NCBI GenBank assembly: GCA_963704755.1
Contig: OY969938.1
Location: forward strand, 3,600,001 to 3,632,000
Direction: 5' to 3'
Source: an uncultured Chloroflexia bacterium
GTDB taxonomy: Bacteria; Chloroflexota; Anaerolineae; Anaerolineales; Anaerolineaceae
Length of the DNA stretch: 32,000 bases
In this document: in pieces, positions 890 through 23,352 of the stretch
How positions within the stretch are numbered: position 1 is the stretch's first letter
Layout of the letters: each line of letters starts with the position of its first letter
Translations under genes and position numbers: made by a program
Notes under the pieces: model-generated
The model's database searches: none
What the model was told of the DNA's origin: nothing
The model's input: the letters and a program-made list of their open reading frames with translations, nothing else

Positions 890-3085
890 TCAGGCCAGAT
901 CAGGATCCATTTGGCTTTCGCCTTGAAAGCGGCTGGAAATCGAACTCAGGTCTAACAGGATGGCCACTTCGCCTTCGCCCAATAAGGCACAGCCGGCCGC
1001 GTCGCGGGCGTGGGCGAGCTGCCCGGTCAGGGAACGGATGAGCACCTGCTGGCGCCCGATCAATTCGTCCACGGCCAGGGCGACCTGGCGATTTTCTCTT
1101 TCGATCACCACAACCAGGCAACCCAGGTAGCCATTCACCCGTTTTTCCAGCCCGCTCAACGGATAAATCGGCAGCCAGTGTTCGGCCTGGCGTACGAGCG
1201 TGTACCCGCCGCCGGCCGATGCGCACGCCAGGTCGGCCTGATCCGGTACGGCGATGCGCTGGATGGCGCTGACCGGTACGACATACAGAATCGATCCGGC
1301 CCGCATGACCATCCCGTCCACGACGGTCAGGTCGATCGGTACCTGAAGGCTGAAGCACAGCCCGCCCTGGGGATTATTTTGGATCTGTAATCCGCCATCC
1401 CGGCTGGCAAGCGCCTGACTTACTTCAATCAGATCGGCTCTAACGGCGTCCCGGCCAGTTCGCGGGCTATCGATTCCCGCACCGTCATCCTGCACCAGCA
1501 CCTGGATAGCCGTCTCCTTCTGGGCCAGGCTAATCTCCAGCCGGGCCTGGCGCGGCTTGCCGGCGGCTTCGCGTTGCGCGGGTGTTTCGATACTGCGCTC
1601 GATCGCATAGCGGACCAGATCGGGCAGCACCCTGCCCAAAACTTCGACGATGGCCTGGTCAAGCTCTACTTCGCCGCCTTCCAGAACCAATCCAACCTCT
1701 TTTTCGTTACGAGTTGAAAACTCATGAACCATCGCGACCAATGGGTCGAGTAGGTCGGCTGCAGGGCAGATGCCCAGGGAACGGACCTGTTCCTGCAGCT
1801 CGGATAAGGCCGCACCCAGTTTCACGTCCACGCGATAGAGTGTGTCCATGTGATGCGACCATTCCTCCAGGAACGAGACCAGGCAGCGGCGAACGTCGGT
1901 CCCATCCGCCAGGGCAGTCTCGACCAGGCGCAGGATCGATTTTCCCAGGTCGTCGTCGATCAATCGTGTCAGCAGCCGGTGGGATGTGGCCTGGTCGGCG
2001 ACCATTTCGCCCACCGCTTCCATCAGCCCCGGCAGGGCTCGGGAGGTCCTGTCCGGAGCGGATTCCAACCGGGAGTCATCCCTGCCCGGAGAAAGAGGGA
2101 GCAAAAGGGGTGCCGGCTGGACTTCCGATTTTATGCCTTTGACCGGCCAGATAAAAGCGGCGAGGTCGAGCGATCGCTCGACCCCCAATTGGCCGGCGCA
2201 ATCCAGGATGTGCAGAAATTCGTCGGCCAGGTCCAGTTTACTGCGTTGGAGAGCCAGGAGATTTTGCGTGCTCGCAGTCACAGAATCAGAACGGGAGAGG
2301 GCCTGGGCCGTCTCGAGAATGCTGTCCAGCAAGGCGCACACTTCCGTGAAACCCATTCCTTCGGCGGCCAGTTTCAGCGTGTCGATTTCCGCAACCAGCG
2401 CGGCGAATGCGCCTTGGGGATGGGCGGCCAGGCCCTGCAAGCCATCCTCGAGCTTGGGAATCTGTTCCGCGGCGATTTCCAGGAAGATGTCCAGGTAGGT
2501 CGAATTGCAAGCCGGATCGATGTGCTCGACGACCAGTTCGGCAACCGGCTCTGGTTCGCGAGGCGTTTCCGCTGCAGGTGGGGGAATGGCCTCCGGTTCG
2601 GCCGGCGCTGGCCCGGCGGGAGCAGGCTCTTGAGCCGTGGACGCTTGTTGGGGAAGCGGGCTGGTGCCCCCGCTGGGTTTTCGGCTCTCGATCAGGTAGG
2701 ACAGGCGGGCCAGGGCAGGTTCGACCTGTTCGGGCGCGGCATCCGTGTGGCTGGAAAGCACTTCGGCTTGCAGGCTGCGTAATTGGTCGATGATGGCGTA
2801 GAGCATTTCGGTCATCTCGCTGTCCAGCGGAACCCCTTCGTCGCGTACCAGCGATACCAGGGTTTCTGCCCGGTGAGACAACCCCTCCAACACCGATAAA
2901 CCCATCATGCGGGCTACCCCTTTGAAGGTGTGCATGGCGCGAAACAGAGCCGCTACCATTCCACTATCGGCCGGTTCACCCTCCAGCTTGAGCAGGACGT
3001 CTTCGGCCAGATCGAGATTTTCTCGAAAATCCTGGTCGAAGGCGGCCCACAGTTCATCGATTTCGGACGAATTATTTGGACTCAT
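890..3085 (-). CDS. cheA: CheA-like protein: HPt, Pro-rich linker, HPt-like domain with Asp at the His position, degenerate P3/P4, CheW-like P5 (predicted phospho-acceptor pseudokinase)
   Basis: 731-aa ORF. N-terminal HPt motif FRAMHTFKGVARMMGL (His52, codon 2930-2932). Pro/Ala/Glu linker at residues ~136-183. Second HPt-like segment YLDIFLEIAAEQ...VAEIDTLKLAAEGMGFTEV with Asp235 (codon 2381-2383) where His is expected. The kinase-core-like region keeps G1 (DDGAGID), but its N box reads DLVRYAIERSIE and no GxGxG G2 box is visible. The C-terminal CheW-like domain ends ...GCALLGEGEVAILLD. Confidence 0.85.
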   Translation of the reverse strand: MSPNNSSEIDELWAAFDQDFRENLDLAEDVLLKLEGEPADSGMVAALFRAMHTFKGVARMMGLSVLEGLSHRAETLVSLVRDEGVPLDSEMTEMLYAIIDQLRSLQAEVLSSHTDAAPEQVEPALARLSYLIESRKPSGGTSPLPQQASTAQEPAPAGPAPAEPEAIPPPAAETPREPEPVAELVVEHIDPACNSTYLDIFLEIAAEQIPKLEDGLQGLAAHPQGAFAALVAEIDTLKLAAEGMGFTEVCALLDSILETAQALSRSDSVTASTQNLLALQRSKLDLADEFLHILDCAGQLGVERSLDLAAFIWPVKGIKSEVQPAPLLLPLSPGRDDSRLESAPDRTSRALPGLMEAVGEMVADQATSHRLLTRLIDDDLGKSILRLVETALADGTDVRRCLVSFLEEWSHHMDTLYRVDVKLGAALSELQEQVRSLGICPAADLLDPLVAMVHEFSTRNEKEVGLVLEGGEVELDQAIVEVLGRVLPDLVRYAIERSIETPAQREAAGKPRQARLEISLAQKETAIQVLVQDDGAGIDSPRTGRDAVRADLIEVSQALASRDGGLQIQNNPQGGLCFSLQVPIDLTVVDGMVMRAGSILYVVPVSAIQRIAVPDQADLACASAGGGYTLVRQAEHWLPIYPLSGLEKRVNGYLGCLVVVIERENRQVALAVDELIGRQQVLIRSLTGQLAHARDAAGCALLGEGEVAILLDLSSISSRFQGESQMDPDLA

Positions 3086-3091
3086 GATCGA

Positions 3092-3514
3092 TCATGGTTT
3101 AGGGCTCATTTCCATACCGAGGACTTTGTAGATCGCCTGAAATATCTCGCTTGCCCGGCGATCTTCGAGATCGAAGGATACTGAACCCGAAGGTTTAGAA
3201 ACAAACGCATCCGCGCCAAGTCCGAGCGCCTGGCCTACCCGGCGGTGATCGCTGCCGACCAGCGAACTGAGAATGATGATCTTTGCGCGCGTCCGCAAGC
3301 GCGCATGGCGCAAGAATTCCAGGCCGTCCATCTCCGGCATTTCGATATCCAGGAGGATCACGTCCGGTTTTACTTCGGACAGTTTTTGCAAGGCCTCTTT
3401 TCCGTTGGCGGCAGTACAGGCTACCTCCAGCGCGGGGTCCTTGCCGATAATTCTACTGATTGCCAGACGCATTGTCCCTGAATCGTCCACAACCATGATC
3501 TTTTTCTTATCCAT
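3092..3514 (-). CDS. cheY: Stand-alone receiver domain protein (CheY-like, with CheB-type receiver features)
   Basis: 140 aa. Acidic pocket VVDDS, phospho-acceptor LLDIEMPEMDG, IILSS and FVSKP. The stop lies 6 nt before the cheA-long start. Confidence 0.85.
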   Translation of the reverse strand: MDKKKIMVVDDSGTMRLAISRIIGKDPALEVACTAANGKEALQKLSEVKPDVILLDIEMPEMDGLEFLRHARLRTRAKIIILSSLVGSDHRRVGQALGLGADAFVSKPSGSVSFDLEDRRASEIFQAIYKVLGMEMSPKP

Positions 3515-3555: not shown

Positions 3556-5490
3556 TTAGAAATCTGCGTAGCCGCGTTCGTCGCGGTCGATGGAAGCCGG
3601 CGCCAGGCGGCGGCTGCCATTGCCGCCTTTGGGTTTAGCGCTCCGAGCCGGCTGCTTGTTCGGCGTCTCGGCCGCCGGCCGGATCGCCTGCGCCGTCAAG
3701 TTGGCCGCCTGGCCGGCCCGCAGTTGAAAGCGGGCCACTTCTTCACGCAGCCGGTCGGCCAGCCCGCCCAGTTCGTCCGCCGTGCTGGCCAGCTCTTCGC
3801 TCTGCGAGCTGTTCGACTGGGTGCCCTGGCTGACCTGGCTCATGGCGATGTTGATCTGACCGAGAGCCTTGCTCTGCTCTTCGCTGGCCGCGGCGATCTC
3901 GGCGACCAGGTCCTTGACCTTGACCACGTTCTGGACGATTTCGCCCAGGGAGGTGGAAGTCTCGGCGCTGATGCTGACGCCTTCCTGGACACGGCGGTTG
4001 GAGTCCTCGATCAGCTCGGCCGTCGAATGGGCGGCCTTGGCGCTGCGCTCGGCCAGGTTGCGCACTTCCTGGGCGACCACCGCGAAGCCGCGGCCGTGCT
4101 GGCCGGCCCGGGCGGCTTCCACGGCCGCATTGAGGGCCAGGAGGTTGGTCTGGAAGGCGATCTCGTCGATCACCTTAATGATCTTGGCAATCTCTTGCGA
4201 AGAGCGTGAGATCGAATCCATGGCAGTGGTCATGGTTTTCATCTTCTCCAGCCCAACGGAGGCTAAAGTACTGGTCTGGCTGGCCAACTGGTTGGCAAAG
4301 CTGGCATTTTCAGCGGAAGCCTTGACCTGGGAGTCCGACTCCTCCAGGTTGGAGGCCACTTCCTCGACCGAGGCGGACTGTTCCTGGGCATTGGCGGCCA
4401 GGTCCTGGCTGGAAGCCTGCACCTGCTCGGTGGCCTGGCCTACCTGAGTCACGACCGAATCCACCTGCTGCAAGGTATTGTTCAGCCCTTCGATGGCTGC
4501 TGAGAGGGCCGTCCTGATCCTGGAAAATTCGCCCTTATAATCGCCGTTCGGCTCGACTTTGAGATCGCCTTCCGCCATTTTCTCGGATACGTTGACGATA
4601 TCCGCGACAACCTCACGCAGGTCGGCATTCATCTGGCCGTAGGCCGACCCGGTTTCCTGCAATTTGGCGATCATGGCATTGAAAGCCAGGGCCAAATCGC
4701 CGATCTCATCCGAAGAATGGTAGGTTAACGCTTCGGCCTGGAGGGAAAAAGATTGGGTCAGGTCGCCCTGGGACATGGCCTGCATTGCACCGGCCAGGCT
4801 GGGCAGGTCGGTTTGCGAGATCTGGCGGGCAGTGGCGGCCACCACCCGGGCCCCATTGGACAGCGAGCGAGACAGGAAGAAGGCGATGCCCAGGCCCAGC
4901 AGGATGGCCGCGGCCAGGACGCCCAGGATCTCCATACGTGCCTGGCCATAGGTCTGGCCGGCTTCCTGATAGCTCAGGTCGGCCTGGGTTTCTTTGGCCT
5001 GGACCAACTGGGCCGCATTTTCCTGGATAACGGAGGCATCCGCTTCGGCTGTGGCGAGCAATTCCACGGCCTGGTTATCCTGGTCGGTCTGGGCCAGTTG
5101 CAAGGCGCCCTCGACGACGTTGGCGTAATCGGTGGCGTGGGCATCGATTTGGGCCAGGTAAGCCTGGTCCTGGCTGCTGGCATCCTGATTGAGGACCTTC
5201 ATATCCGCGTCGATGGTTGCGCGAGCGTCGGATTCCTGTTGGACGCGCTGAGAGAATTCAGTCGAACCGGCCTGGTCGATGATCGCATTGGACACGGCGG
5301 CATCGATCGAGACGATGTTCTTCTCCAGGTCATTGGCCACGATGATGCCTTGCAGGTCATTTTGGTAAAGGCCGTCGGTGTCGCTCTTGATCGAATTGGC
5401 GCTCAGAATACCGAACACCCCGACAATGCCGGTCAAAACCAGCACTGCGGCAAAGGCTAACAACAATTTGTTGCGGATATTCAACTTCAT
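3556..5490 (-). CDS. Methyl-accepting chemotaxis protein, two TM helices, periplasmic helical sensor, HAMP plus an extra HAMP-like unit
   Basis: I place the start at MKLNIRNK (ATG 5490), preceded by AGGGAGGGG; the track ORF begins 7 codons earlier. TM1 is [21 protein letters not shown] and TM2 is [23 protein letters not shown] motif: GDLTQS...[14 protein letters not shown]. Signalling hairpin: [40 protein letters not shown]. Confidence 0.9.
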
Positions 5491-5575: not shown

Positions 5576-6121
5576 TTATGCCTCAGGTAATTCACTGTTC
5601 TCCATGGTCGTCAGGTCAACGTCTTGAGGATCCATTAATAGCCGGGTTATATCTAAAATCATGCTGACGCTGTTGTTTTGTTTTGCCAGGCCCAGGACCA
5701 CACCGCGGCTTTCGTTACTGTGCCAGTTCGGCGGTGGGTCGATGTATTCCTGGGGGATCGTGACCACATCCGTGACGCGATCGACGACCAGCCCGGTCTG
5801 AGAATTATTCTGGTCCAGTACGACAATCGTGGTGCGGTCGTCATAATCCCGCCAGGGCAAGCCAAACCGGAGCCTCAGGTCCATCACCGGGATCACTTTC
5901 CCACGCAGGTTCATCGCCCCGCGAATGAAATCCGGCATGTCCGGCACAGCCGAAATGCGCTGCATCCCGACAATTTCGGTCACGTATTGGATATTTACCG
6001 CATAGGTTTCACCGGCTAAATCAAACGTCATGTACATGTGTTCGATTTCCCCGCCTTCGGCAGCCTCGGATAAGGAACCATCGCGCATCGAGATTTGCTG
6101 GTCCGATAATTGTTCTGTCAT
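5576..6121 (-). CDS. cheW: CheW coupling protein
   Basis: CheW-like sequence: FDLAGETYAVNIQYVTEIVGMQRISAVPDMPDFIRGAMNLRGKVIPVMDLRLRFG. AGGAGG lies immediately upstream of ATG-TAC-ATG, so I prefer the second ATG (6121) for spacing; 6127 is the alternative. The upstream part of the track ORF overlaps the mcp stop and is unlikely to be coding. Confidence 0.85.
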   Translation of the reverse strand: MTEQLSDQQISMRDGSLSEAAEGGEIEHMYMTFDLAGETYAVNIQYVTEIVGMQRISAVPDMPDFIRGAMNLRGKVIPVMDLRLRFGLPWRDYDDRTTIVVLDQNNSQTGLVVDRVTDVVTIPQEYIDPPPNWHSNESRGVVLGLAKQNNSVSMILDITRLLMDPQDVDLTTMENSELPEA

Positions 6122-6137
6122 GTACATCCTCCTGATA

Positions 6138-7916
6138 TTAGAAATCTGCGTAACCGCGTTCGTCGCGGTCGATGGAAGCCGGCGCCAGACGGTTGCTGCC
6201 ATTGCCGCCTTTTGGTTTAGCGCTCCGAGCCGGCTGCTTGCGCGACGTCTCGGCCCCTGGCCGGATCGTCTGGCCGGCCCGCAGTTGAAAGCGGGCCACT
6301 TCTTCGCGCAGCCGGTCGGCCAGCCCGCCCAGCTCGTCCGCCGTGCTGGCCAGCTCTTCGCTCTGCGAGCTGTTCGACTGGGTGCCCTGGCTGACCTGGC
6401 TCATGGCGATGTTGATCTGACCGAGAGCCTTGCTCTGCTCTTCGCTGGCCGCGGCGATCTCGGCGACCAGGTCCTTGACCTTGACCACATTCTGGACGAT
6501 TTCGCCCAGGGAGGTGGATGTCTCGGCGCTGATGCTGACGCCTTCCTGGACACGGCGGTTGGAGTCCTCGATCAGCTCGGCCGTCGAGTGGGCGGCCTTG
6601 GCGCTGCGCTCGGCCAGGTTGCGCACTTCCTGGGCGACCACCGCGAAGCCACGGCCGTGCTGGCCGGCCCGGGCGGCTTCCACGGCCGCGTTGAGGGCCA
6701 GGAGGTTGGTCTGGAAGGCGATCTCGTCGATCACCTTGATGATCTTGGCAATCTCTTGCGAAGAGCGTGAGATCGAATCCATGGCAGTGGTCATGGTTTT
6801 CATCTTCTCCAGCCCCACAGAGGCTAAAGTACTGGTCTGGCTGGCCAACTGGTTGGCAAAGCTGGCATTTTCAGCGGAAGCCTTGACCTGGGAGTTCGAC
6901 TCCTCCAGGTTGGAGGCCACTTCCTCGACCGAGGCGGACTGTTCCTGGGCATTGGCGGCCAGGTCCTGGCTGGAAGCCTGCACCTGCTCGGTGGCCTGGC
7001 CGACCTGCACTACGACCGAATCCACCTGCTGCAGCGTATCATTGAGTCCCTCATTCATCTGGGTGTAGGCGGCTGCAGTTTCCTGCAATTTGGCGATCAT
7101 GGCATTGAAAGCCAGGGCCAAATCGCCGATCTCATCCGAAGAATGGTAGGTTAGCGCTTCGGCCTGGAGGGAAAAAGATTGGGTCAGGTCGCCCTGGGAC
7201 ATGGCCTGCATCGCGCCGGCCAGGCCGGGCAGGTCGGTTTGCGAGATCTGGCGGGCAGTGGCGGCCACCACCCGGGCCCCATTGGACAGCGAGCGAGACA
7301 GGAAGAAAGCGATGCCCAGGCCCAGCAGGATGGCCGCGGCCAGGACGCCCAGGATCTCCATGCGTGCCTGGCCGTAGGTCTGGCCGGCTTCCTGGTAGCT
7401 CAGATCGGCCTGGGTTTCTTTGGCCTGCACCAACTGGGCCGCATTTTCCTGGATAACGGAGGCATCCGCTTCGGCTGTGGCGAGCAATTCCACGGCCTGG
7501 TTATCCTGGTCGGTCTGGGCCAGTTGCAAGGCGCCCTCGACGACGTTGGCGTAATCGGTGGCGTGGGCATCGATTTGGGCCAGGTAAGCCTGGTCCTGGC
7601 TGCTGGCATCCTGATTGAGGACCTTCATATCCGCGTCGATGGTTGCGCGAGCGTCGGATTCCTGTTGGACGCGCTGAGAGAATTCAGTCGAACCGGCCTG
7701 GTCGATGATCGCGTTGGACACGGCGGCATCGATCGAGACGATGTTCTTCTCCAGGTCATTGGCCACGACGATGCCTTGCAGGTCATTTTGGTAAAGGCCA
7801 TCGGTATCGCTCTTGATCGAATTGGCACTCAGAATACCGAACACCCCGACAATGCCGGTCAAAACCAGCACTGCGGCAAAGGCTAACAACAATTTGTTGC
7901 GGATGTTTAATTTCAT
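6138..7916 (-). CDS. Methyl-accepting chemotaxis protein, near-identical paralog of 3556-5490 with a single HAMP
   Basis: Same N-terminus ([19 protein letters not shown]), sensor, HAMP and signalling domain as the other MCP. It lacks 45 aa after the HAMP and 7 aa in the C-terminal tail. An alternative start at 7994 forms an ATGA overlap with the cheB stop and would add 26 aa not present in the paralog. Confidence 0.88.
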
Positions 7917-7990
7917 TTCCAAACATTCCTTGATATATTCGTCTGCAATGCTATTAAAAATATTAACTGGGGGATTAATCCCACTTAATT

Positions 7991-9076
7991 TCATTGGAGC
8001 GCTCGCAATAGATAGTTCGCGACGCTATCGATAGGCAATAATTTTTCAGCGGCACCCAGGGCCCAGGCAGCACCGGGCATACCAAAAACAATGCTGGTTT
8101 CTTCGTCCTGGGCAAAGGTATGGCCTCCAGATTGCCGAATTTCTAATAAACCGGCCGCGCCATCGTTCCCCATTCCAGTCAACAAAGCTGCGGCGGCATT
8201 CTTGCCCACATTTTTCCCGATCGAGCGGAAAAGGACATCCACAGAAGGGCAATGGCCGTTTACTTTGTCGGCCTGGATCAACAAGGCCCGGTATTCACCG
8301 CCGGACTGGTGGATTTCGAGATGCCGGTTTCCACCCGGCGCTAACAGCGCCAGGCCGGGCCGCACGCGGTCGCCATCTTGTGCTTCCTTCACCTGGATGG
8401 CGCAAAGTGAATTCAGGCGCTCGGCAAAGCTGGTGGTAAAACCGGCCGGCATGTGCTGGACGATGACGATGCCCGGGCAAGCCGCCGGGAACATCGGCAG
8501 GAGGCGCGCCAGGGCCGACACTCCACCGGCCGAGGCGCCGATCGCGATCACACGGTCGGTCGTCGTTACCAACGACGAATGCAGAAAAGCGACCGCCGAC
8601 GGATCGGGGGCCGCCTTTGAGTTTGTTTTGGGTTCGTTGGGCGTGATCCGTGAGAAACGGTGCACGTCGGATTTGGCCGCATCTTTGACCAGTTCACACA
8701 GGTCGTTCATCAGTACGGGCAAGCCGTCCACAATGCCGACCTTTGGTTTTGTAACCACCCCGAACGCCCCAGCTTCCAGCGCGTCCAGGGTGATCTTTTG
8801 GCCGCGCTCGGCCAGCGAACTGACGATCACCGTGGGGGTGGGATATTGGCGCATGTAGCTCTTCATGAAACTTACCCCATCCATCTCGGGCAGTTCGATG
8901 TCCAGGGTAATCACATCTGGCTTTTCGGTAGTAATCAGGTTCAATGCAATCGAAGGAGTACGCGCCGTACCAATCACCTCGATCTGGGGATCCTGTGACA
9001 GGCTATCGCGTAATATTTTTCTGGCCAGGGCCGAATCATCCACCACCAGAACGCGGATTTTATGGTTTGGACTCAT
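7991..9076 (-). CDS. cheB: CheB protein-glutamate methylesterase (receiver plus esterase domains)
   Basis: 361 aa. Receiver motifs [12 protein letters not shown]...[11 protein letters not shown]...VSSL...VTKP, then an esterase domain with [11 protein letters not shown] and GMGNDGA. Confidence 0.9.
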
Positions 9077-9124
9077 AATTCACCACCGTTACCACCAGTA
9101 TGTCCCTTTCGATGCCCCGGCTTT

Positions 9125-9997
9125 TCAGATCTTGTGGTAGATACCATTATCGATCCTCTTCCAGGGAGAGTTCATCCAATGCAAAGTCTCCGTGACGCTC
9201 GTCAACAGCCAGCCACCCGGGTGGGTGACATCGTATAGATCCCAAATCAGTTTTTCTTGGGTTGCACGATCGAAGTAATAAAGCACATTTCGGCAAAAAA
9301 CCACATGAAAAGGATGCTGAAATGGCCAGGGCAGTTTGACCAGGTTCAAACGACGGAAGGTACAGAATTTGGCCAGCGCCGGGTCCACCTGCCACAAATC
9401 AGGGGAAACCGGGCGAAAATAACGCTTGCGTAAGGGCGGGCTGACCAGCTCTATTTTCTGTTGGGGATAGATACCTTTTTCAGCCTGTTGGATCATGGGA
9501 TAGCTAATGTCAGTGCCCAAGATCGCTACCCTTTCCCGCACCCCGGCCTGGCCAAAAATTTCAGCGAGGATGATCGCCAGGGTATAAACTTCCTCGCCGC
9601 TGGCTGCCGCGGCGCTCCAAACCCGCCAGACTTCTTTTTCGGGCAGGGTCGCCAGGATGTGTTCTTGAAAGAACTGCAAGACCTCGGGCTCGCGGAAGAA
9701 AAAGCTGTGATTGGTGGATACCACCCTGGCCAGTTCCGCCGGTAAATCGGGGTAAGCCGCCGTTTGTTGCAAGTGCTGCTGGAGTTCGTCCAATCCAGTA
9801 AGGCCCAACCGCCAGCAGAGGTTGTGGAGACGCCGGTAAAGGGTTAATTCCTTTTTTGCGTTGTAGTGAATGCCGGTATACTCCGAAACCCATTGGCGCA
9901 GCTTTTCGAAGGTCTCCCGTTCGGCCGGCCGAATATGGTCCAACTGAAATCCGCCGGCAGAGGCGGGGAGGCGATCTTCAAGGTTTGGATCAGTCAT
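9125..9997 (-). CDS. cheR: CheR chemotaxis protein methyltransferase
   Basis: 290 aa. Contains TNHSFFFREP, a SAM-binding-like stretch RVWSAAAASGEEVYTLAI, and FCRNVLYYF. Confidence 0.9.
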   Translation of the reverse strand: MTDPNLEDRLPASAGGFQLDHIRPAERETFEKLRQWVSEYTGIHYNAKKELTLYRRLHNLCWRLGLTGLDELQQHLQQTAAYPDLPAELARVVSTNHSFFFREPEVLQFFQEHILATLPEKEVWRVWSAAAASGEEVYTLAIILAEIFGQAGVRERVAILGTDISYPMIQQAEKGIYPQQKIELVSPPLRKRYFRPVSPDLWQVDPALAKFCTFRRLNLVKLPWPFQHPFHVVFCRNVLYYFDRATQEKLIWDLYDVTHPGGWLLTSVTETLHWMNSPWKRIDNGIYHKI

Positions 9998-10027
9998 AAC
10001 GGCCTAGTATCCACGTATTTTCCGGAG

Positions 10028-11218
10028 TTATCCCATTGCCGAGGTAAATAATTGCTCGATATCCAGGACGATCGCGACTTCTCCTGAACCCAGTAAGGCG
10101 CAGCCGGATCCTCCGCGGATGTTTTTCAAATAGCCGGGCAGCTCTTTGATCATCACCTGCTCTTGACCAAGGATTTCATCCACCGGAAAACCGATATTCC
10201 CCCGGCTGGCCTCTACGATAACCACAACCTGCTCGGTAAGTGGTTTAGGGTTTCCGTTCACAGCCGGATCCTCGTGCAGGCCCATCACCGGAATAACCTT
10301 GCCCTGGCGCAAGACCATTTCCTTGCCCTCGGCCGAGTTCCGGATGATTTCGTCTGCCGCGGGTTGGAAGACTTCCGCTACTGTTTCAATCGGCAGCGCA
10401 TACAGTCGATTATTCGAGTTCACCACCAGGCTCTCTAAAAAAGTCAGGGTAACGGGTAAGATCATGGTGATAGCCGTTCCCCGGCCCGGTTCGCTGGTGA
10501 TTTCGATCCTGCCCCGTAAAGCGCGGACCGCCGTCTGGACAACATCCATGCCGACCCCCCGGCCGGAAAGGTTGGTCACCTCCTTTGCCGTGGAAAACCC
10601 CGGGCGAAAAATGAAATTGAACAGCGCCGAATCGGGCAGATCTTCGCCCTCGGTCGCCAGTCCCTGTTCTATTGCCCGCTGCAGGATCTTTTCTCGGTCG
10701 AGTCCGCGGCCATCATCGGCCACGGTGATCGAAATTTCCTGGCCTTTCTGCGCTGCGCGGACCAGGATCCGGCCCTGTTCGGGTTTGCCGGCCGCCTGGC
10801 GGGCATCTGCCGGTTCGATGCCATGGTCCGAGGCGTTGCGGATCAAGTGCAGCAAGGGATCGTTCAATTGATCGACGACGGTCTTGTCGATCTCGACATC
10901 CTCCCCCTCGACGATGATCTCGAGTTGTTTCCCGACCTGGTGGGATAGTTCGCGGGCCAGGCGTTGAATGCGCCTGAATAATTGGCTGGCCGGGACCAGG
11001 CGCATACTGGAAGCCAGGTCCTGCACCTCGTGAGTGAGCAGCTCCAGGTGATGGGCGGCATTTTCGAACCCCTCCAGCTCGCTGCCAGAAATCGAGGGAT
11101 GATGGGTAACCGATAATACTGCCAGGCCAAGCTCGCCCACAAGGTCGAGTAATTGAGTGACTTTATCTGTTTTTATGCGGATAAATGCATCAGGCTGGAT
11201 TGTTGGTTGCATTGACAT
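10028..11218 (-). CDS. cheA: CheA-type histidine kinase core lacking HPt (P1) and P2: P3-P4-P5 only
   Basis: 396 aa. It starts directly with a dimerisation-type helix (KVTQLLDLVGELGLA). N box HLIRNASDHGIE (10814-10849), G1 DDGRGLD, F box FNFIFRPGFST and G2 SGRGVGMDVV are all present, followed by a CheW-like P5. No HTxKG motif occurs anywhere in the protein. Confidence 0.88.
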   Translation of the reverse strand: MSMQPTIQPDAFIRIKTDKVTQLLDLVGELGLAVLSVTHHPSISGSELEGFENAAHHLELLTHEVQDLASSMRLVPASQLFRRIQRLARELSHQVGKQLEIIVEGEDVEIDKTVVDQLNDPLLHLIRNASDHGIEPADARQAAGKPEQGRILVRAAQKGQEISITVADDGRGLDREKILQRAIEQGLATEGEDLPDSALFNFIFRPGFSTAKEVTNLSGRGVGMDVVQTAVRALRGRIEITSEPGRGTAITMILPVTLTFLESLVVNSNNRLYALPIETVAEVFQPAADEIIRNSAEGKEMVLRQGKVIPVMGLHEDPAVNGNPKPLTEQVVVIVEASRGNIGFPVDEILGQEQVMIKELPGYLKNIRGGSGCALLGSGEVAIVLDIEQLFTSAMG

Positions 11219-11461: not shown

Positions 11462-11559
11462 TTCGGGATAAATGAAAAGAGAGGTAATTCGAGTGTGTTT
11501 TTATTCGTGGCGGCGTAGCCGCCACGAATAAAAACACACTCGAAAACTCTTATCCCGAA
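11462..11559. repeat. Nested inverted repeat with a 25-bp perfect palindromic core
   Basis: Core: CGAGTGTGTTTTTATTCGTGGCGGC (11490-11514), loop GTA, then GCCGCCACGAATAAAAACACACTCG (11518-11542). Outer arms: TTCGGGATAA (11462-11471) and TTATCCCGAA (11550-11559). Confidence 0.8.
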
Positions 11560-11844: not shown

Positions 11845-12015
11845 TTAGTGCTTTTCTGAGCTGGCTTCTTTCTTCGTATCACCCTGCAGGCCCTTCTTGA
11901 AGGCCCGGATGCCATTACCCATTTCTGAACCGATCTTACCGATCCGTCCAACACCGAATACCAGCAGCACAATCACTAAAATGATGATCAGTTCAGGTGC
12001 ACCGAAAGCGGCCAT
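11845..12015 (-). CDS. tatA: Twin-arginine translocase subunit TatA/E
   Basis: Start at MAAFGAPELIIILVIVLLVFGVGRIGKIGSEMGNGIRAFKKGL, preceded by AAAGGAG. The TM helix, the FG hinge and the amphipathic helix are typical of TatA. The longer track ORF (to 12084) has no support. Confidence 0.8.
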   Translation of the reverse strand: MAAFGAPELIIILVIVLLVFGVGRIGKIGSEMGNGIRAFKKGLQGDTKKEASSEKH

Positions 12016-12405
12016 ATTTTTCTCCTTTAACTTTATCGTTTCGCACGGCGAGTTGGGGTGCCCGGCCGGTACGAAACCAATCATGAAACTCTGGCAATAT
12101 TAGCACAAATTCCCGCCGGTGGTTAAAAGCTGTAAGGTTTACAATACCGGTTTCTGGGAGAGGTTTTCTTATAAGGCTGAGACTGTTCAGCAGAAAGAAT
12201 GTTCTCCGGCCGGACAGGGCGTAAAATAAATCGATAGACCGTAACTAATCAGGTAGGTTCAAAAGGGGAGCGTGTCTTTTTTTTGGAGATGGCTGAATAG
12301 TTGCAATGGATCAAGAATAAATCCACCCAAATTTTGGGTTCTTGCTCGTTGGGTTGATCCATCACCGCTTACAACTAACCCGAAAAAACCTTCAAGGAGA
12401 TCAGC

Positions 12406-13476
12406 ATGGCGTCCTTTTCACCCATCGTTTTCACGGGGGGCTACCAACACGAAAACCAGCCCGGCGTGCGTGCTTTTGGGCTTAACACGGAAACAGGCGC
12501 GCTGGCAGCCTGCGGGGAATATTGTGGAATTACGGCGCCGTCCTTTCTCGCGCTGCACCCCAATGGCCGCTGGCTGTATGCGGTCAGCGAGACCGGGATG
12601 GAAGCCGACCAGACCGCCGGCCACGTTCAGGCGATCGCGCTGGATCGCAGCGGCGAGGCGGTTAAGTTCACCCGGCTGAACACCCGGCCGAGCGGCGGCG
12701 ATTTTCCCTGCCACGCGGTTATCGATCCCTCCGGGAAGTGGCTGGTGGCGAGTAACTACGGCAGCGGGGTGGTGAGCGCCTTTGCGATCCGGGAGGATGG
12801 ATCGTTGGACCCCTGCGATGCGCCTGTCCAGCACCACGGACACGGTCCCAACCCGGAACGGCAGGAAGGCCCGCACACCCATTCGGCGATTTTTACCCCG
12901 GATGGGCAATTCGTGATCGTCGCCGACCTGGGCATAGACGCCCTGGTGATCTACCGGCTGGTGGACGGGCGGTTTGAGAAAGTCACAAATGTGGCTGCCC
13001 GGCCGGGCGCCGGTCCCAGGCATATGGCCTTTCATCCTAACCGGCGGGTGTTGTACGTGGTGAACGAACTGGATAGCACCCTGGTGGCCTACGATTATGC
13101 CGATGGCAATTTGAGCGAGCGCGCGACCTTGCCCACTTTGCCCGAAAGCTCGCCGGGAAACCTGGCTGCCGATCTTCACCTGGCGCCAGGCGGGGAGCGT
13201 GTCTATGTTTCGAACCGGGGCGACAACAGCCTGGCCGTGTTCGCGGCCAACCCCCAAGGGGCGTTGGCACCGTTGACCTTCGCACCCTGCGGCGGCAACT
13301 GGCCGCGCAATTTTGCCCTCGCACCAGACGGGCGGTTTCTCCTGGTGGCCAATCAATACAGCAATGAGGTCGTTACCCTGCCGTTGCAGCCCGGCACAGG
13401 CGAAATCGCTGCACCGCTTGCGCGGGTACCCGTGCCGGGTGTTTCCTGTGTCGTTTTTGCGCCGGCAAGGTTCTGA
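12406..13476 (+). CDS. Lactonase-family 7-bladed beta-propeller protein (6-phosphogluconolactonase-like)
   Basis: 356 aa, RBS AAGGAG. Family-typical stretches: HPNGRWLYAVSE, DPSGKWLVASNYGSG, GPHTHSAIFTPDGQFVIVADLGID, HPNRRVLYVVNELDS, APDGRFLLVANQ. Confidence 0.75.
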   Translation: MASFSPIVFTGGYQHENQPGVRAFGLNTETGALAACGEYCGITAPSFLALHPNGRWLYAVSETGMEADQTAGHVQAIALDRSGEAVKFTRLNTRPSGGDFPCHAVIDPSGKWLVASNYGSGVVSAFAIREDGSLDPCDAPVQHHGHGPNPERQEGPHTHSAIFTPDGQFVIVADLGIDALVIYRLVDGRFEKVTNVAARPGAGPRHMAFHPNRRVLYVVNELDSTLVAYDYADGNLSERATLPTLPESSPGNLAADLHLAPGGERVYVSNRGDNSLAVFAANPQGALAPLTFAPCGGNWPRNFALAPDGRFLLVANQYSNEVVTLPLQPGTGEIAAPLARVPVPGVSCVVFAPARF

Positions 13477-13547
13477 GCGGAGCTCAATTACCTTGGCCCG
13501 GGAGCCCGGCGAACATGGGAAAGCCATAGTCACCCGGGCCAAACGTA

Positions 13548-13576
13548 TTGACTTTTTGTTTTCGTTATGCTAAGAT
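13548..13576 (+). promoter_or_regulatory. Sigma-70-type promoter for the LacI-family gene
   Basis: TTGACT (13548-13553), a 17-nt spacer, then TAAGAT (13571-13576), about 30 nt upstream of the ATG at 13606. Confidence 0.55.
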
Positions 13577-13590
13577 GAAAGAGCTTTCAT
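13575..13590. promoter_or_regulatory. LacI-type palindromic operator overlapping the -10 element
   Basis: ATGAAAG-AG-CTTTCAT has perfect 7-bp arms. A matching site occurs at 14645-14658. Confidence 0.6.
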
Positions 13591-13605
13591 AAAACCATTT
13601 GTACA

Positions 13606-14613
13606 ATGAAAAACGGACTAAAAGACCCCACCATTTACGATGTAGCTGAGCTCTCGGGCGTCAGTATCTCTACCATTTCGCGGGTGATCAATACCCCCGA
13701 AAGGGTGAACGCCGATACTCGCAACAAGGTCAATGAGGCGATCGACAAGTTGAATTTTGTCCCCAAAGCCGAAGCTCGGGCCCGCGCGCTCAAGCTGACC
13801 CATCGTATTGGTGTCATCACCCCGTTTTTCACAGCGCCATCCTTTGCGCAGCGTCTGCGCGGTGTGGCGACTGCCTTGAAAAAAGCCGATTACGACCTGG
13901 TGATTTACACGGTCGAGTCGACCGATCAATTGAAAAGTTATCTGTCTTCTTTGCCCATTACCGGTAACCTGGACGGGCTGATTATCATGTCGCTGTCCGT
14001 GGATGACGCCGATGTGCAGCGGATCGTGGATCACCAACTGCCGGCGGTCTTGATTGAGTATCCGCACCCGTTGTTGAACTGCGTGGAAATCGACGATTTT
14101 CAGGGGGGCAAGCTGGCCGGCGAGTACCTGCTCAAAAAAGGGCATCGCAAAATTGCTTTCCTGGGGGATACCGATCTCCCGGAATATGCCATCCATCCGG
14201 TGAGCCTGCGTTTTCAGGGTTTCAAGAAGGCGTTGCAGGATGCCGGCGTAGAAATTCCTAAAGAGTTTATCCGCCTGGCGCCCTACGATCAGGAAATGGC
14301 GCGCCACGTCGCGAAAGAATTATTCGAATTGCCGGATCGACCCACGGCGATTTTTGCCGCGACCGACCTGCAAGCTTTGGGTGTCATTAAGGCTGCCCGT
14401 CAATTAAAGATCAATGTTCCGGAAGAACTGGCGATTATCGGGTTTGATGATATCGACATGGCGGAATTTGAGGACCTGACCACCATCCGCCAACATCTGG
14501 ATGAATCGGGCCGGTTGGCAGTGGAGATCTTGATGTCTCACATCGACGACAATTCGCGGCCCGTTCAACATTCGCAGCTCCCGTTGGTTGTTGTAGAAAG
14601 ACTGACCGTTTAA
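13606..14613 (+). CDS. LacI-family transcriptional regulator
   Basis: 335 aa. N-terminal HTH TIYDVAELSGVSISTISRVIN, followed by a periplasmic-binding-protein-like sugar-binding fold. Confidence 0.9.
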   Translation: MKNGLKDPTIYDVAELSGVSISTISRVINTPERVNADTRNKVNEAIDKLNFVPKAEARARALKLTHRIGVITPFFTAPSFAQRLRGVATALKKADYDLVIYTVESTDQLKSYLSSLPITGNLDGLIIMSLSVDDADVQRIVDHQLPAVLIEYPHPLLNCVEIDDFQGGKLAGEYLLKKGHRKIAFLGDTDLPEYAIHPVSLRFQGFKKALQDAGVEIPKEFIRLAPYDQEMARHVAKELFELPDRPTAIFAATDLQALGVIKAARQLKINVPEELAIIGFDDIDMAEFEDLTTIRQHLDESGRLAVEILMSHIDDNSRPVQHSQLPLVVVERLTV

Positions 14614-14644
14614 GGAGCAAGGCGTTAAAAAATTTCGCCGTTTA

Positions 14645-14658
14645 TGAAAGTGCTTTCA
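14645..14658. promoter_or_regulatory. Second LacI-type operator, upstream of the ABC binding-protein gene
   Basis: TGAAAG-TG-CTTTCA has the same half-sites as the operator at 13575-13590. It lies about 100 nt upstream of the binding-protein start. Confidence 0.55.
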
Positions 14659-14760
14659 GATAAACAATTTCATGGCAGGAGGTGTACCTATAAGATAGTC
14701 TGATCCTCGGATTGCTCGCTGTAAAAATCATCAAGATATAAGGATTTCAGGAGGATGAAA

Positions 14761-16221: not shown

Positions 16222-16280
16222 TGATAAAGGCCGCGTGACAAGTGCCTGCGTCTAAAAGGTTGACATTGAAATCTAAATCG

Positions 16281-17210
16281 ATGACAGACAACAGCTCCGT
16301 GGCATCTGCATCCTCCCGGCGGATCTTCCCCCAAAAGGTGGTCCGCCGGGAGACCATCACCGGCTGGCTGTACGTGGTGCCCGCGCTGGTGATGTATGCA
16401 GTGTTTGTGCTGGTGCCCCTCTTGATGAGTATTCGGTACTCGTTCTATAGTTGGAACGGTATCGGAGCAATGCATTGGGTGGGGCTGAAGAACTATGTGA
16501 CTGTCTTTAAGGTTCCTGACCTTATAGGTACCATTTTTAATGCATTCAAACTGGTCTTGTTTTTTAGCATCATCCCGGTAGCGCTTGGGCTCCTGGTCGC
16601 GAGTGTCATCCACCGCGTGGCGCCCGGCCAATTCGGAGAGGTAGCCCGGACCGTTTTGTTTCTTCCCCAAATTATTCCGCTCGTCGCAGCGGGGATCATC
16701 TGGGGCTGGCTGCTGGCTCTTCCGGGCCTGGTCAACGAGATCCTCAAGGCAGTTGGGCTCAGTGTGGTTGCCCGCGCCTGGCTGGGTGACTTTACCTGGG
16801 CGCTCCCCGCGGTGGGCTTCATCGGTGTTTGGGTGCTGTTGGGGTTCTGTACTGTCTTGCTGCTGACCGGCATCAATAAGATCGATCCGTCTCTGTACGA
16901 ATTGGCCAGGATCGACGGCGCCAGTTGGTGGGAAGAATTCACCTCGATCACCATGCCGCTGCTGAAAAATGAGATCGGTGTCTGTCTCACCGTCACCGTG
17001 ACCAATGCGCTGGCCGCATTCGATATCGTTTATGTGACCACGGCCGGCGGCCCCGGTAATACCACTTCGGTGCCCGGAATCCAAATTTATATCCTCGCTT
17101 TTACCCAGCAGCGGATTGGCCTGGCCTCTGCTCTGGCGGTTTTGCTCATGATCCTGGTTGTGGTGGTCATTCTTCCTATCCAACGCCTGAGCAGGGAGTC
17201 CACGTTATGA
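16281..17210 (+). CDS. ABC sugar transporter permease (MalF/UgpA-like)
   Basis: Multi-TM protein with the EAA-type loop region ...IDPSLYELARIDGASWWEEFTSITMPLL. The track ORF begins at a GTG (16242); the first ATG is at 16281. Confidence 0.85.
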   Translation: MTDNSSVASASSRRIFPQKVVRRETITGWLYVVPALVMYAVFVLVPLLMSIRYSFYSWNGIGAMHWVGLKNYVTVFKVPDLIGTIFNAFKLVLFFSIIPVALGLLVASVIHRVAPGQFGEVARTVLFLPQIIPLVAAGIIWGWLLALPGLVNEILKAVGLSVVARAWLGDFTWALPAVGFIGVWVLLGFCTVLLLTGINKIDPSLYELARIDGASWWEEFTSITMPLLKNEIGVCLTVTVTNALAAFDIVYVTTAGGPGNTTSVPGIQIYILAFTQQRIGLASALAVLLMILVVVVILPIQRLSRESTL

Positions 17211-18031: not shown

Positions 18032-18200
18032 ACAGCAAGACCAAAAGCAGAAGGTCAATCCATCCGTTGAAGCCTGTACTGTAAATGATGATGGTAGTGA
18101 ATGAGCTTAAGCCATGGAACGTTTATCTGCTTCCAGGCCTGGCTTTATGTTCTTATCGGAAACGATATTTCAGTACACGCATTCAAGTAGCTGGTTACAG

Positions 18201-19667: not shown

Positions 19668-19692
19668 GAATAACCATTTTGGGGAAGGATTT

Positions 19693-20670: not shown

Positions 20671-20742
20671 GCAGTTTGAAACCCTGCTTGTGCCAGGTGA
20701 ATAATTGAAGCAATGCGGTCTCGTTAAGGCGATTCGCACTTA

Positions 20743-20771
20743 TTGACAGCCCCCAGGGGTTATGCTATTAT
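20743..20771 (+). promoter_or_regulatory. Near-consensus sigma-70 promoter for the GntR-family gene
   Basis: TTGACA (20743-20748), a 17-nt spacer, then TATTAT (20766-20771). Confidence 0.65.
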
Positions 20772-20774
20772 ATA

Positions 20775-20823: not shown

Positions 20824-20841
20824 CCAAGTTGGGGAGAATCA

Positions 20842-21573: not shown

Positions 21574-21595
21574 TGAGTGAGCGAGAAGAAAAAGA

Positions 21596-23345: not shown

Positions 23346-23352
23346 TTTCGCT

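What the first reader, a model, noticed from the sequence alone, without database searches (positions are those of the whole stretch)
4492..4626. One MCP carries an extra 45-aa HAMP-like unit on an otherwise identical receptor: possible signal-inverted twin
MCP1 contains [45 protein letters not shown] between the first HAMP and the signalling domain. MCP2 joins ...YTQMN directly to [11 protein letters not shown].

The insert has the HAMP pattern: a hydrophobic heptad helix, GDL, a connector, G-E-F, then a second heptad helix. Its length also fits one HAMP unit. Substitutions are denser right at the indel borders.

Established knowledge: in poly-HAMP arrays such as Aer2, neighbouring HAMP units adopt opposing conformations, so adding one unit is expected to invert or rephase the output.

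Inference: the cell may read the same ligand through two receptors of opposite or shifted sign. This would be a push-pull or band-pass arrangement feeding one kinase array.
Basis: partly seen in the sequence, partly recalled or inferred. Interest (0 to 1): 0.65.

Follow-up and report, generated by a model that had tools for sequence, protein, structure and literature searches.

The report
Twin chemoreceptors differing by one HAMP unit
Two neighbouring, almost identical chemotaxis receptor genes differ by exactly one copy of a known 45-residue signal-relay (HAMP) module; this is ordinary copy-number variation for this receptor family, but it gives a clean natural pair for testing what one extra HAMP does.

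Summary
MCP1 (3556-5490, minus strand) carries a 135-nt in-frame segment at 4492-4626 that MCP2 (6138-7916, minus strand) lacks. The rest differs by 13 residues and a 7-residue tail indel.

The 45 residues are one copy of a divergent, Aer2/Pfam HAMP_2-type HAMP module. In Chloroflexi relatives this module occurs in 0 to 5 tandem copies at a 45-residue period, always directly before the signalling domain. AlphaFold2 predicts helix-connector-helix with confidence. Removing the unit keeps the heptad register, so both architectures look native. Homologous operons in other species use a single receptor with either 0 or 1 unit.

The genes are old tandem paralogues homogenised by gene conversion: 247 sites group paralogues and 3 group orthologues. 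A sister genome has the same pair with the same indel. The dense substitutions at the indel borders (p about 1e-9) are unconverted old divergence, not adaptation.

The identical sensor is a recent conversion product: the sister species' sensors are only 81% identical.

Sign inversion is predicted by HAMP models and has an engineered precedent, but cannot be tested here. The extra unit also lengthens MCP1 by an estimated 2-2.5 nm, which argues against a shared array. Ordinary in kind, moderately useful.

The parts
4492..4626 (-). The 45-codon unit present only in MCP1 (residues 289-333). It is one divergent, HAMP_2/Aer2-type HAMP module. AS1 runs about L291-E307, the connector G308-G320, and AS2 starts at E321/F322 and continues into the shared EGLNNT... 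helix.
   Evidence: Indel. Pfam HAMP_2 E = 4.8e-4. A unit HMM finds 0-5 tandem copies in homologues. The unit profile hits Aer2 3VOL at E = 9.9e-5, and 24 of 28 units hit HAMP_2. AlphaFold2 gives H262-306, coil 307-321, H322-461 with pLDDT 75-87. Against the orthologue there are 19 synonymous-only and 6 non-synonymous codon differences.
3556..5490 (-). MCP1 coding sequence, 644 aa: 4HB sensor, TM2, canonical DExG HAMP1, 14-residue helical spacer, 45-residue HAMP unit, signalling domain, disordered tail, C-terminal ...[10 protein letters not shown].
6138..7916 (-). MCP2 coding sequence, 592 aa from the ATG at 7916. An in-frame upstream ATG at 7994 overlaps the CheB stop. The architecture matches MCP1 without the unit.
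   Evidence: AlphaFold2 predicts one continuous helix from HAMP1 AS2 to the hairpin tip (H288-442 in the 618-aa numbering).
7050..7055 (-). Junction codons N288|E289 of MCP2, where the unit is absent. The heptad register runs straight through.
4654..4872 (-). HAMP1 of MCP1 (about residues 207-279). It is canonical and membrane-proximal, has the DEIG (DExG) motif, and has an unusually long AS1. The equivalent region in MCP2 is about 7080-7298.
   Evidence: Pfam HAMP E = 4.3e-15. AlphaFold2 gives coil 241-261 between helices. Alignment.
4627..4668 (-). 14-residue (two-heptad) helical spacer, A275-N288, between HAMP1 AS2 and the unit in MCP1, or between HAMP1 AS2 and the signalling domain in MCP2.
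   Evidence: Zero-unit relatives P0035-38, P0061 and P0072 have a spacer of the same length.
4447..4491 (-). 3' flank of the indel (in gene orientation) with raised paralogue divergence.
4627..4671 (-). 5' flank of the indel (in gene orientation) with raised paralogue divergence.
3691..3711 (-). Second, 21-nt indel (about AANLTAQ) in the low-confidence C-terminal tether of MCP1.
   Evidence: pLDDT is below 50 for residues 599-635.
5576..6120 (-). CheW gene lying between the two MCP genes. It is not part of the duplicated DNA.
7991..11218 (-). Upstream operon genes: short CheA (dimerisation + HATPase_c + CheW domains, no Hpt; 10028-11218), CheR (9125-9997), CheB (7991-9076).
890..3514 (-). Downstream operon genes: CheY-like receiver (3092-3514) and long CheA-like protein (Hpt + degenerate HATPase_c + CheW; 890-3085).

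Best explanation
MCP1 and MCP2 are old tandem paralogues inside one chemosensory operon, kept about 97% identical by gene conversion. The only structured difference is one copy of a modular 45-residue divergent HAMP domain (Pfam HAMP_2 / Aer2 type).

In this Chloroflexi receptor family the module sits directly before the signalling domain in 0 to 5 tandem copies. The unit begins and ends at equivalent helix positions, and 45 residues is a register-neutral step. Both architectures are therefore native and competent:
- MCP2: TM2, HAMP1, 14-residue helix, signalling domain.
- MCP1: TM2, HAMP1, 14-residue helix, HAMP2, signalling domain.

These points are shown: the indel, its HAMP nature, the modularity, the preserved register, purifying selection, concerted evolution, and conservation of the 1-unit/0-unit pair in a second species.

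This point is inferred: because nothing else differs, any effect of the extra four-helix relay is uncompensated. The two receptors should therefore couple the same sensor to the kinase-control bundle differently. The most likely difference is an opposite or strongly shifted ON/OFF bias. MCP1 should also reach about 2-2.5 nm further into the cytoplasm.

The dense substitutions at the indel borders are old divergence left where conversion tracts stop at the heterology.
For: - The indel lies exactly at 4492-4626.
- A unit HMM finds 0/1/2/3/4/5 copies in 52/50/8/3/4/3 of the 120 best homologues. Spacing is 45 residues (range 44-48). The last unit ends 116 residues before the NLLALNA hairpin motif in 67 of 68 proteins.
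- The best PDB match of the unit profile is Aer2 3VOL, E = 9.9e-5. 24 of 28 units hit Pfam HAMP_2 at E < 0.01.
- G308, L310, Y318 and G320 are invariant or nearly invariant.
- AlphaFold2 predicts MCP1 as H262-306, coil 307-321, H322-461 with pLDDT 75-87 across the insert. MCP2 has one continuous 155-residue helix to the tip.
- The MCP1 model superposes on the Af1503-HAMP/Tsr fusion 3ZX6 (TM-score 0.88 normalised to the target, rmsd 2.9 A, 302 columns).
- The a/d heptads are continuous through both junctions.
- dN/dS is 0.12 for MCP1 against MCP2, 0.08 for MCP1 against its orthologue, and 0.09 for MCP2 against its orthologue. Within the unit, 19 codons differ synonymously and 6 non-synonymously.
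- The sister genome L001 has the same MCP2'-CheW-MCP1' synteny and the same indel state.
- 247 sites group paralogues, 3 group orthologues and 4 are crossed.
- In the first 115 aa, L2 is 72-73% identical to the three MCP1-type sequences (its paralogue L1 and both window copies), below the 83% between the L1 and W1 orthologues, and about 44% to the next relative. The duplication therefore predates the species split.
- Border divergence has p = 2e-9 in this genome and 2e-11 in the sister genome.
- Homologous split-CheA operons elsewhere carry a single MCP with 0 units (P0038, P0036) or 1 unit (P0007).
- Literature: neighbouring HAMPs adopt alternating conformations, and each HAMP reverses the sense of helix rotation (PMC13446029). 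Tar chimeras H1 and H1-2 give opposite outputs (PMC3570549).
Against: - The window's own unit scores below Pfam's gathering threshold (20.5-21.5 bits against 24.3).
- The structure models are monomers with pTM 0.35, so the dimeric four-helix bundle is not shown.
- The MCP2 orthologue in L001 carries three 1-nt insertions. It may be a pseudogene there or carry assembly errors, which weakens the argument that both forms are kept by selection.
- The indel could persist simply because a 135-nt heterology blocks conversion, without any selection.
- Copy number in the family changes in single steps with no preference for odd or even counts. That would be odd if every unit flipped the behavioural sign.
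- The three-HAMP chimera H1-23 did not behave as the alternation model predicts.
- There are no expression or functional data.
Confidence: 0.7

Rival explanations
1. The pair is a selected push-pull or band-pass device: one ligand is read through two receptors of opposite sign that feed the same kinase array.
For: - The sensors are identical in this genome (160 of 161 residues).
- One HAMP is predicted to reverse rotation or stability coupling.
- The H1 and H1-2 chimeras have opposite bias.
- The 1-unit/0-unit pair is kept in two species despite conversion on both flanks.
Against: - The sensors are not identical in the sister species (131 of 161 residues, and 54 of 81 over residues 30-110). 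'Same ligand' is therefore a recent by-product of conversion.
- The estimated 2-2.5 nm length difference is in the range reported to segregate receptors into separate arrays.
- Equal and opposite receptors in one array would cancel each other.
- The family shows no preference for odd or even unit counts.
- H1-23 failed the alternation prediction.
Confidence: 0.15
2. The unit is mainly a length, gain or bias tuner. It keeps the response sign but changes receptor height, stiffness, set-point or sensitivity. It may sort the two receptors into different arrays or baseplates of this split-CheA system.
For: - Family copy number ranges from 0 to 5, which corresponds to roughly 0-12 nm of extra length. 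It changes in single steps with no preference for odd or even counts.
- All units are of one sequence type. The published gearbox logic expects a one-type chain to stall rather than relay alternately.
- Arrays form between receptors of the same length class.
- The operon encodes two CheA-like proteins, each with a CheW-like domain, plus a separate CheW.
Against: - In MCP1 the unit follows a canonical DExG HAMP. That is the two-type arrangement for which alternation was proposed.
- There is no direct evidence on array composition.
- The length estimate comes from monomer models only.
Confidence: 0.3
3. MCP2 is a decaying deletion derivative of MCP1 and has no function of its own.
For: - The MCP2 orthologue in L001 is interrupted by three 1-nt insertions.
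- Gene conversion could keep a dead copy looking intact.
Against: - The ORF in the window is intact.
- The deletion is exact to the module and preserves the register.
- The junction and the 14-residue spacer match natural zero-unit relatives.
- Zero-unit MCPs are the only receptor in homologous operons.
- dN/dS is 0.09-0.12.
- MCP2 is embedded in the operon with a Shine-Dalgarno-like site and the CheW gene immediately after it.
Confidence: 0.07
4. The pair or the indel is an assembly artefact arising from a repeated gene.
For: Near-identical tandem repeats are prone to misassembly.
Against: - The copies have different flanks and 59 scattered substitutions.
- They sit on a 4.87-Mb contig.
- An independent assembly from another sample shows the same arrangement and the same indel.
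Confidence: 0.02

Closest known systems
Aer2 of Pseudomonas aeruginosa (multi-HAMP soluble receptor; PDB 3LNR, 3VOL)
   Same: - It is the best solved-structure match of the unit profile (3VOL, E = 9.9e-5).
- It has a single conserved Gly at the connector/AS2 junction instead of DExG.
- AS2 of one HAMP continues as a helix into AS1 of the next.
- A HAMP lies directly before the kinase-control module.
   Different: - Aer2 is soluble, has a haem-PAS sensor and has five HAMPs of differing types.
- Here a single unit follows a canonical transmembrane-proximal HAMP after a 14-residue spacer.
Engineered Aer2-Tar chimeras H1 and H1-2 (Airola et al. 2013, PMC3570549)
   Same: The same receptor with one or two HAMPs before an unchanged kinase-control module. 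This is the laboratory analogue of MCP2 and MCP1. The two chimeras gave opposite kinase biases in cells lacking CheR and CheB.
   Different: - The chimeras are artificial and mostly locked, not ligand-responsive.
- The three-HAMP version did not follow the prediction.
- The pair here is natural, under purifying selection and co-encoded in one operon.
Poly-HAMP arrays of soluble chemoreceptors and AskA-type kinases (Dunin-Horkawicz & Lupas 2010; Coles et al. 2026, PMC13446029)
   Same: HAMP units are concatenated, expanded by intragenic amplification and placed upstream of the methyl-accepting domain, with conserved junction glycines.
   Different: - Published arrays repeat two-type di-HAMP modules (canonical plus non-canonical) in soluble proteins.
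- Here the relatives repeat a single 45-residue type in steps of one, in transmembrane receptors.
- The window itself has only 1 copy against 0.
NpHtrII, the two-HAMP phototaxis transducer
   Same: It is a transmembrane transducer with two HAMPs in series before the signalling domain. Its two HAMPs are reported to move in opposite ways.
   Different: It is archaeal, takes its input from sensory rhodopsin II and has a different inter-HAMP linker. No near-identical single-HAMP twin is known.
E. coli Tsr/Tar-type single-HAMP receptors (1QU7, 3ZX6, 8C5V)
   Same: The signalling domain is 40-48% identical and superposes well. MCP2 has the same overall plan of sensor, TM2, one HAMP and a kinase-control module.
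   Different: - HAMP1 here has an extended AS1 and a two-heptad spacer.
- The C-terminal motif is ...DRDERGYxxF, not NWETF.
- The operon has a split CheA.

Membership tests
HAMP domain (Pfam PF00672 / PF18947 HAMP_2) | The profile-HMM match reaches the curated threshold. | tested here: inconclusive
   The window unit alone scores 20.5-21.5 bits on HAMP_2 against a cut-off of 24.3 (E = 2e-4 to 5e-4), and E = 0.038 on PF00672. At family level, 24 of 28 homologous units match HAMP_2 at E < 0.01 (best 7.9e-7). Many homologues carry a precomputed PF18947 hit.
HAMP domain (Pfam PF00672 / PF18947 HAMP_2) | About 50 residues forming helix (AS1), a connector of about 12-15 residues, and helix (AS2). 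| tested here: met
   The AlphaFold2 model gives a helix to residue 306, coil 307-321, and a helix from 322, with pLDDT 75-87. The model superposes on the Af1503-HAMP/Tsr fusion 3ZX6 with a target-normalised TM-score of 0.88.
HAMP domain (Pfam PF00672 / PF18947 HAMP_2) | Heptad a/d hydrophobic core in both helices, Gly at the AS1/connector junction, and hydrophobic connector residues. | tested here: met
   AS1 core: L291a, V294d, I298a, V301d, M305a. AS2 core: F322a, I325d, L329a, A332d, L336a. G308, L310, Y318 and G320 are invariant or nearly invariant in 28 units.
HAMP domain (Pfam PF00672 / PF18947 HAMP_2) | Parallel four-helix bundle in the receptor dimer. | not testable with these tools
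   Only single-chain models can be made here.
Divergent / poly-HAMP-type HAMP in the sense of Airola (Aer2-like) | A single conserved Gly at the connector-AS2 junction in place of the DExG motif of membrane-proximal HAMPs. | tested here: met
   The unit has YKG320EF, with the Gly invariant. HAMP1 of the same proteins has DEIG. The definition is taken from PMC3570549.
Poly-HAMP array (Dunin-Horkawicz & Lupas; Coles et al. 2026) | Repeating di-HAMP modules made of alternating canonical and non-canonical HAMP types. | tested here: not met
   The window has a single unit. In relatives with 2-5 units, every unit matches the same 45-residue profile at 55-77 bits with a 45-residue period.
Poly-HAMP array (Dunin-Horkawicz & Lupas; Coles et al. 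2026) | Tight concatenation with no linker between successive HAMPs. | tested here: not met
   In MCP1 a 14-residue helical spacer separates HAMP1 AS2 from the unit. Between units in the relatives' arrays the concatenation is direct.
Methyl-accepting chemotaxis protein | MCPsignal hairpin domain with the conserved tip, in a che operon context. | tested here: met
   PF00015 matches both proteins at E = 2e-48. The tip motif [21 protein letters not shown] is invariant. The genes are flanked by CheA, CheW, CheR, CheB and a CheY-like gene.
Concerted evolution by gene conversion between tandem paralogues | Paralogues within a genome are more alike than orthologues between genomes, although the duplication predates the split. 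| tested here: met
   247 sites group paralogues and 3 group orthologues. Synteny and indel state are shared. The unconverted N-terminus in L001 gives the topology (L2,(L1,W1=W2)).
Signal-inverted receptor pair (functional class) | Opposite-sign kinase response to the same stimulus. | not testable with these tools
   This needs FRET, phosphotransfer or behavioural assays.

The most novel reading that the evidence does not exclude
The 1-unit/0-unit pair is kept by selection as a natural two-channel sensor. The same or nearly the same sensor domain drives two kinase-control modules with opposite sign or strongly offset set-point, because of one uncompensated HAMP relay. Gene conversion keeps everything else matched. 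This would be a natural, near-isogenic demonstration that adding one HAMP inverts chemoreceptor output.
Probability: 0.15. Interest if true: 0.7.

Novelty: new member of a known kind. Interest (0 to 1): 0.38.

Why it matters
How HAMP domains relay signals is still debated, between helix rotation (the gearbox model) and changes in bundle stability (the dynamic-bundle model). Whether chained HAMPs alternate state has been tested mostly with artificial chimeras. This pair is a natural near-isogenic construct: the same sensor, first HAMP, adaptation region and tip, with or without one HAMP. Both copies are under purifying selection and both sit in one operon. That makes it a ready test system for sign, bias and array-height effects of a single HAMP.

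The evolutionary pattern is also a clear small example of gene conversion homogenising paralogues while a domain-sized indel survives. As a kind of object, however, receptors with one or two HAMPs and poly-HAMP copy-number variation are already known.

Tried and rejected
- The scan of species-representative genomes with full-length MCP1 was swamped by the universal tip motif DEIAFQTN.
- I looked for orthologue-specific substitutions next to the indel that would indicate adaptation to the presence or absence of the unit. Only one such site was found (alignment column 845). The spacer residues are not conserved by type: GS..G in W1, QV..H in L1, AA..T in W2, AG..V in L2. The adaptation idea was rejected in favour of unconverted old divergence.
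- I looked for microhomology or direct repeats at the indel ends that would indicate a recent slippage or excision event. None were seen.
- The promoter and terminator scan of the operon found nothing above shuffled expectation. There is no evidence that the two MCP genes are regulated separately. An 8-bp hairpin in the CheW-MCP1 spacer is not conserved in L001.
- P0048 (663 aa) and P0076 (618 aa), on one contig and differing by 45 aa in length, looked like a second twin pair. They are only 61% identical and have different repeat layouts.
- The automatic sliding heptad-phase scan was ambiguous between a/d-swapped phases, so I relied on the explicit a/d listing.
- A Foldseek search with the whole model is dominated by the long hairpin. 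It supports only that the region from the unit onward looks like a HAMP-Tsr fusion.
- I could not decide whether the unit was gained by MCP1 or lost by MCP2. Relatives and homologous operons have either state.
Full report
**Context.** The window's minus strand carries one chemosensory operon. In order it encodes:
- a short CheA with dimerisation, HATPase_c and CheW domains and no Hpt (11218-10028);
- CheR (9997-9125);
- CheB (9076-7991);
- MCP2 (7916-6138);
- CheW (6120-5576);
- MCP1 (5490-3556);
- a CheY-like receiver (3514-3092);
- a long CheA-like protein with Hpt, a degenerate ATPase domain and a CheW domain (3085-890).

The closest database relatives of the MCPs are from Chloroflexi/Anaerolineae metagenome-assembled genomes.

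**Checking the observation.** Protein and DNA alignments of the two MCP genes show a 135-nt in-frame indel at exactly 4492-4626. MCP2 joins QMN directly to EGLNDT.

DNA similarity begins about 5 nt before the start codons and ends at the stop codons, so only the coding sequences are shared. The two BLAST blocks are 97% and 95% identical. Outside the indel there are 13 amino-acid differences and a second 21-nt indel in the C-terminal tail.

In the 30 nt on each side, 14 of 60 positions differ, against 45 of 1719 elsewhere (Fisher p = 2e-9).

**Is the insert a HAMP?** Taken alone it is a sub-threshold Pfam HAMP_2 hit: 20.5 bits against a cut-off of 24.3, E = 4.8e-4. The family context settles the question.
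- An HMM built from seven orthologous segments finds the same 45-residue unit in 68 of the 120 best homologues.
- The copy-number distribution is 0, 1, 2, 3, 4, 5 copies in 52, 50, 8, 3, 4, 3 proteins.
- Units lie back to back at a 45-residue period. The last unit ends 116 residues before the hairpin motif in 67 of 68 cases.
- A profile of 28 units has Aer2 (PDB 3VOL) as its best solved-structure match (E = 9.9e-5), aligning GDL...YxG(D/T)F.
- 24 of 28 units match Pfam HAMP_2 at E < 0.01.
- 2728 representative proteins in the 1.8-billion-protein library match the profile at E <= 0.001. Some have up to 24 matched stretches, which are long poly-HAMP proteins.

The unit has an invariant single Gly at the connector/AS2 junction (YKG320EF). 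HAMP1 of the same proteins has DEIG. This is the criterion Airola et al. use to separate poly-HAMP-type domains from membrane-proximal HAMPs.

AlphaFold2, run with a 120-sequence alignment, predicts a continuous helix 262-306 (HAMP1 AS2, spacer and unit AS1). It then predicts a 15-residue coil (307-321) and a helix 322-461 running to the hairpin tip. pLDDT is 75-87 over the insert.

The model superposes on the Af1503-HAMP/Tsr fusion 3ZX6 (target-normalised TM-score 0.88, rmsd 2.9 A over 302 columns). The models are monomers with pTM 0.35, so the dimeric bundle itself is not shown.

**Register.**
- Core positions run I263a, L266d, F270a, M273d, L277a, T280d, Y284a, M287d, L291a, V294d, I298a, V301d, M305a through HAMP1 AS2, the 14-residue spacer and the unit's AS1.
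- They run F322a, I325d, L329a, A332d, L336a, T339d, V343a... from the unit's AS2 into the methylation helix.

Deleting residues 289-333 puts L336 exactly where L291 was, so MCP2 has an uninterrupted heptad pattern. AlphaFold2 predicts one 155-residue helix there.

Zero-unit relatives (P0035-38, P0061, P0072) have the same 14-residue spacer before xGLNxT. The start of the signalling domain (xGLNxT) resembles the start of a unit (xDLxxV). The step of 45 residues is therefore modular and register-neutral. The 'rephasing' alternative can be set aside.

**Evolution.** A contig from another sample (L001; the MCP1 orthologue is 84% identical) has the same operon, including MCP2'-CheW-MCP1'. Its MCP2' also lacks the unit, joining QMN to AGLNGT.

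In a four-sequence alignment, 247 informative sites group the two paralogues of each genome. Only 3 group orthologues and 4 are crossed.

In L001 the first 300 nt or so escaped homogenisation. There L1 and L2 are only 67-75% identical, less than L1 and W1 at 79-82%. L2 is still far closer to this group (72-73% amino-acid identity) than to any other family member (about 44%). The duplication therefore predates the species split, and both lineages have since undergone gene conversion. In the window lineage the MCP2 sensor was overwritten with MCP1-type sequence.

Divergence peaks at the indel in both genomes. These sites are not shared between orthologues. They are best explained as old divergence left where conversion tracts stop at the 135-nt heterology.

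Both copies are constrained. dN/dS is 0.12 between paralogues, 0.08 for MCP1 against its orthologue and 0.09 for MCP2 against its orthologue. Within the unit, 19 codons differ synonymously and 6 non-synonymously.

One caveat applies. MCP2' in L001 contains three 1-nt insertions, net +3. These may be assembly errors or a real inactivation.

**Wider operon comparison.** Homologous split-CheA operons in more distant Chloroflexi carry a single MCP. It has zero units in two cases (P0038, P0036) and one unit in a third (P0007). Both architectures therefore serve this type of pathway as the sole operon-encoded receptor. The two-receptor state is specific to the window/L001 lineage.

**Function: what is shown and what is inferred.** It is shown that the two receptors have the same sensor (160 of 161 residues), HAMP1, adaptation region and tip, and differ by one HAMP module. 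It follows by inference that any effect of the module is uncompensated.

Published models predict inverse coupling across each HAMP. The input and output helices rotate in opposite senses, neighbouring HAMPs alternate in conformation, and a canonical plus a non-canonical HAMP together restore the original sense (PMC13446029). In Tar chimeras, one Aer2 HAMP gave a kinase-on bias and two gave a kinase-off bias in cells lacking CheR and CheB (PMC3570549).

Several points count against a simple inversion:
- The three-HAMP chimera did not follow the rule.
- Unit number in this family changes in single steps with no preference for odd or even counts.
- The sister species' two sensors are only 81% identical. 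A 'same ligand, two signs' design is therefore not conserved.

The extra bundle also adds about 14-16 helical residues of axial length, roughly 2-2.5 nm. I estimated this from the helix lengths. A difference of about 2 nm has been reported to segregate receptors into separate arrays (PMC6759762).

**Verdict.** The feature is real and correctly located. It is a one-copy difference in a known type of HAMP module between two gene-converted tandem paralogues. It is a new member of a known kind. Its main value is as a natural near-isogenic pair for testing HAMP relay logic. The sign-inversion idea is plausible but unproven, and I put it at roughly 0.3. The full 'push-pull in one array' reading I put at about 0.15.

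Noticed in passing
window 10028-11218 (-) and 890-3085 (-); also L001 4141-5325 and 12695-14875: The kinase of this operon is split. A 396-aa protein has dimerisation, HATPase_c and CheW domains but no Hpt. A 731-aa protein has Hpt and CheW domains but only a degenerate ATPase region (HATPase_c 14 bits, E = 0.06). The same split occurs in L001 and in the more distant operons L082 and L084. From my own knowledge, it resembles the CheA4/CheA3 division of labour in Rhodobacter sphaeroides.
   Followed up: partly
homologues P0005, P0009, P0020, P0014, P0012, P0016: Chloroflexi relatives carry arrays of 3-5 copies of the same 45-residue HAMP unit at an exact 45-residue period, in transmembrane MCPs. 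Published poly-HAMP arrays are described as repeats of two-type di-HAMP modules in soluble proteins (PMC13446029). One-type arrays that change in steps of one may be an undescribed variant.
   Followed up: partly
window about 4770-4872 (-) (MCP1 residues about 207-240); the same region in MCP2: HAMP1 has an unusually long AS1. An extra segment of about 22 residues ([16 protein letters not shown] after ARQISQTDL) looks like a second AS1 end. Relatives P0025, P0030 and P0032 lack it. AlphaFold2 predicts one helix 138-240 followed by a 21-residue connector.
   Followed up: no
window 3556-3690 (-) (C-terminal about 45 residues of MCP1); the same region in MCP2 at 6138-6272: A low-confidence tether of about 40 residues ends in a motif that is nearly invariant across the family, LDRDERGY(A/G)xF. 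It may be a docking tail for CheR or CheB, analogous to the NWETF pentapeptide. The second indel between the twins (7 residues) lies in this tether.
   Followed up: no
L001 about 8540-8560 and about 9155-9160: The MCP2 orthologue in the sister genome has three single-T insertions: TCG to TCTG twice, and AGTC to AGTTC once. The net change is +3, which splits the gene call into 344-aa and 179-aa products. The cause could be sequencing error or a real pseudogene.
   Followed up: partly
window about 11490-11542: A perfect inverted repeat of about 24 bp, followed by a T-rich stretch on the minus strand, lies between a small TatA-like ORF (11845-12084, minus strand) and the start of the che operon. 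It is probably a terminator that insulates the operon.
   Followed up: no
window 7917-7994 (-): In the window an in-frame ATG that overlaps the CheB stop (ATGA) would add 26 residues to MCP2. In L001 the equivalent region is a separate 37-codon ORF. The true MCP2 start, and possible translational coupling to CheB, are unresolved.
   Followed up: no
window 12406-31997: The rest of the window encodes sugar and pentose-phosphate metabolism: a lactonase, a LacI-family regulator, an ABC sugar transporter, an alpha-amylase-family protein, an acetyl-xylan esterase, a GntR regulator, an aldolase, ribose-5-phosphate isomerase, transketolase and transaldolase. No flagellar or pilus genes lie near the che operon, so the output of the pathway is unknown.
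   Followed up: no
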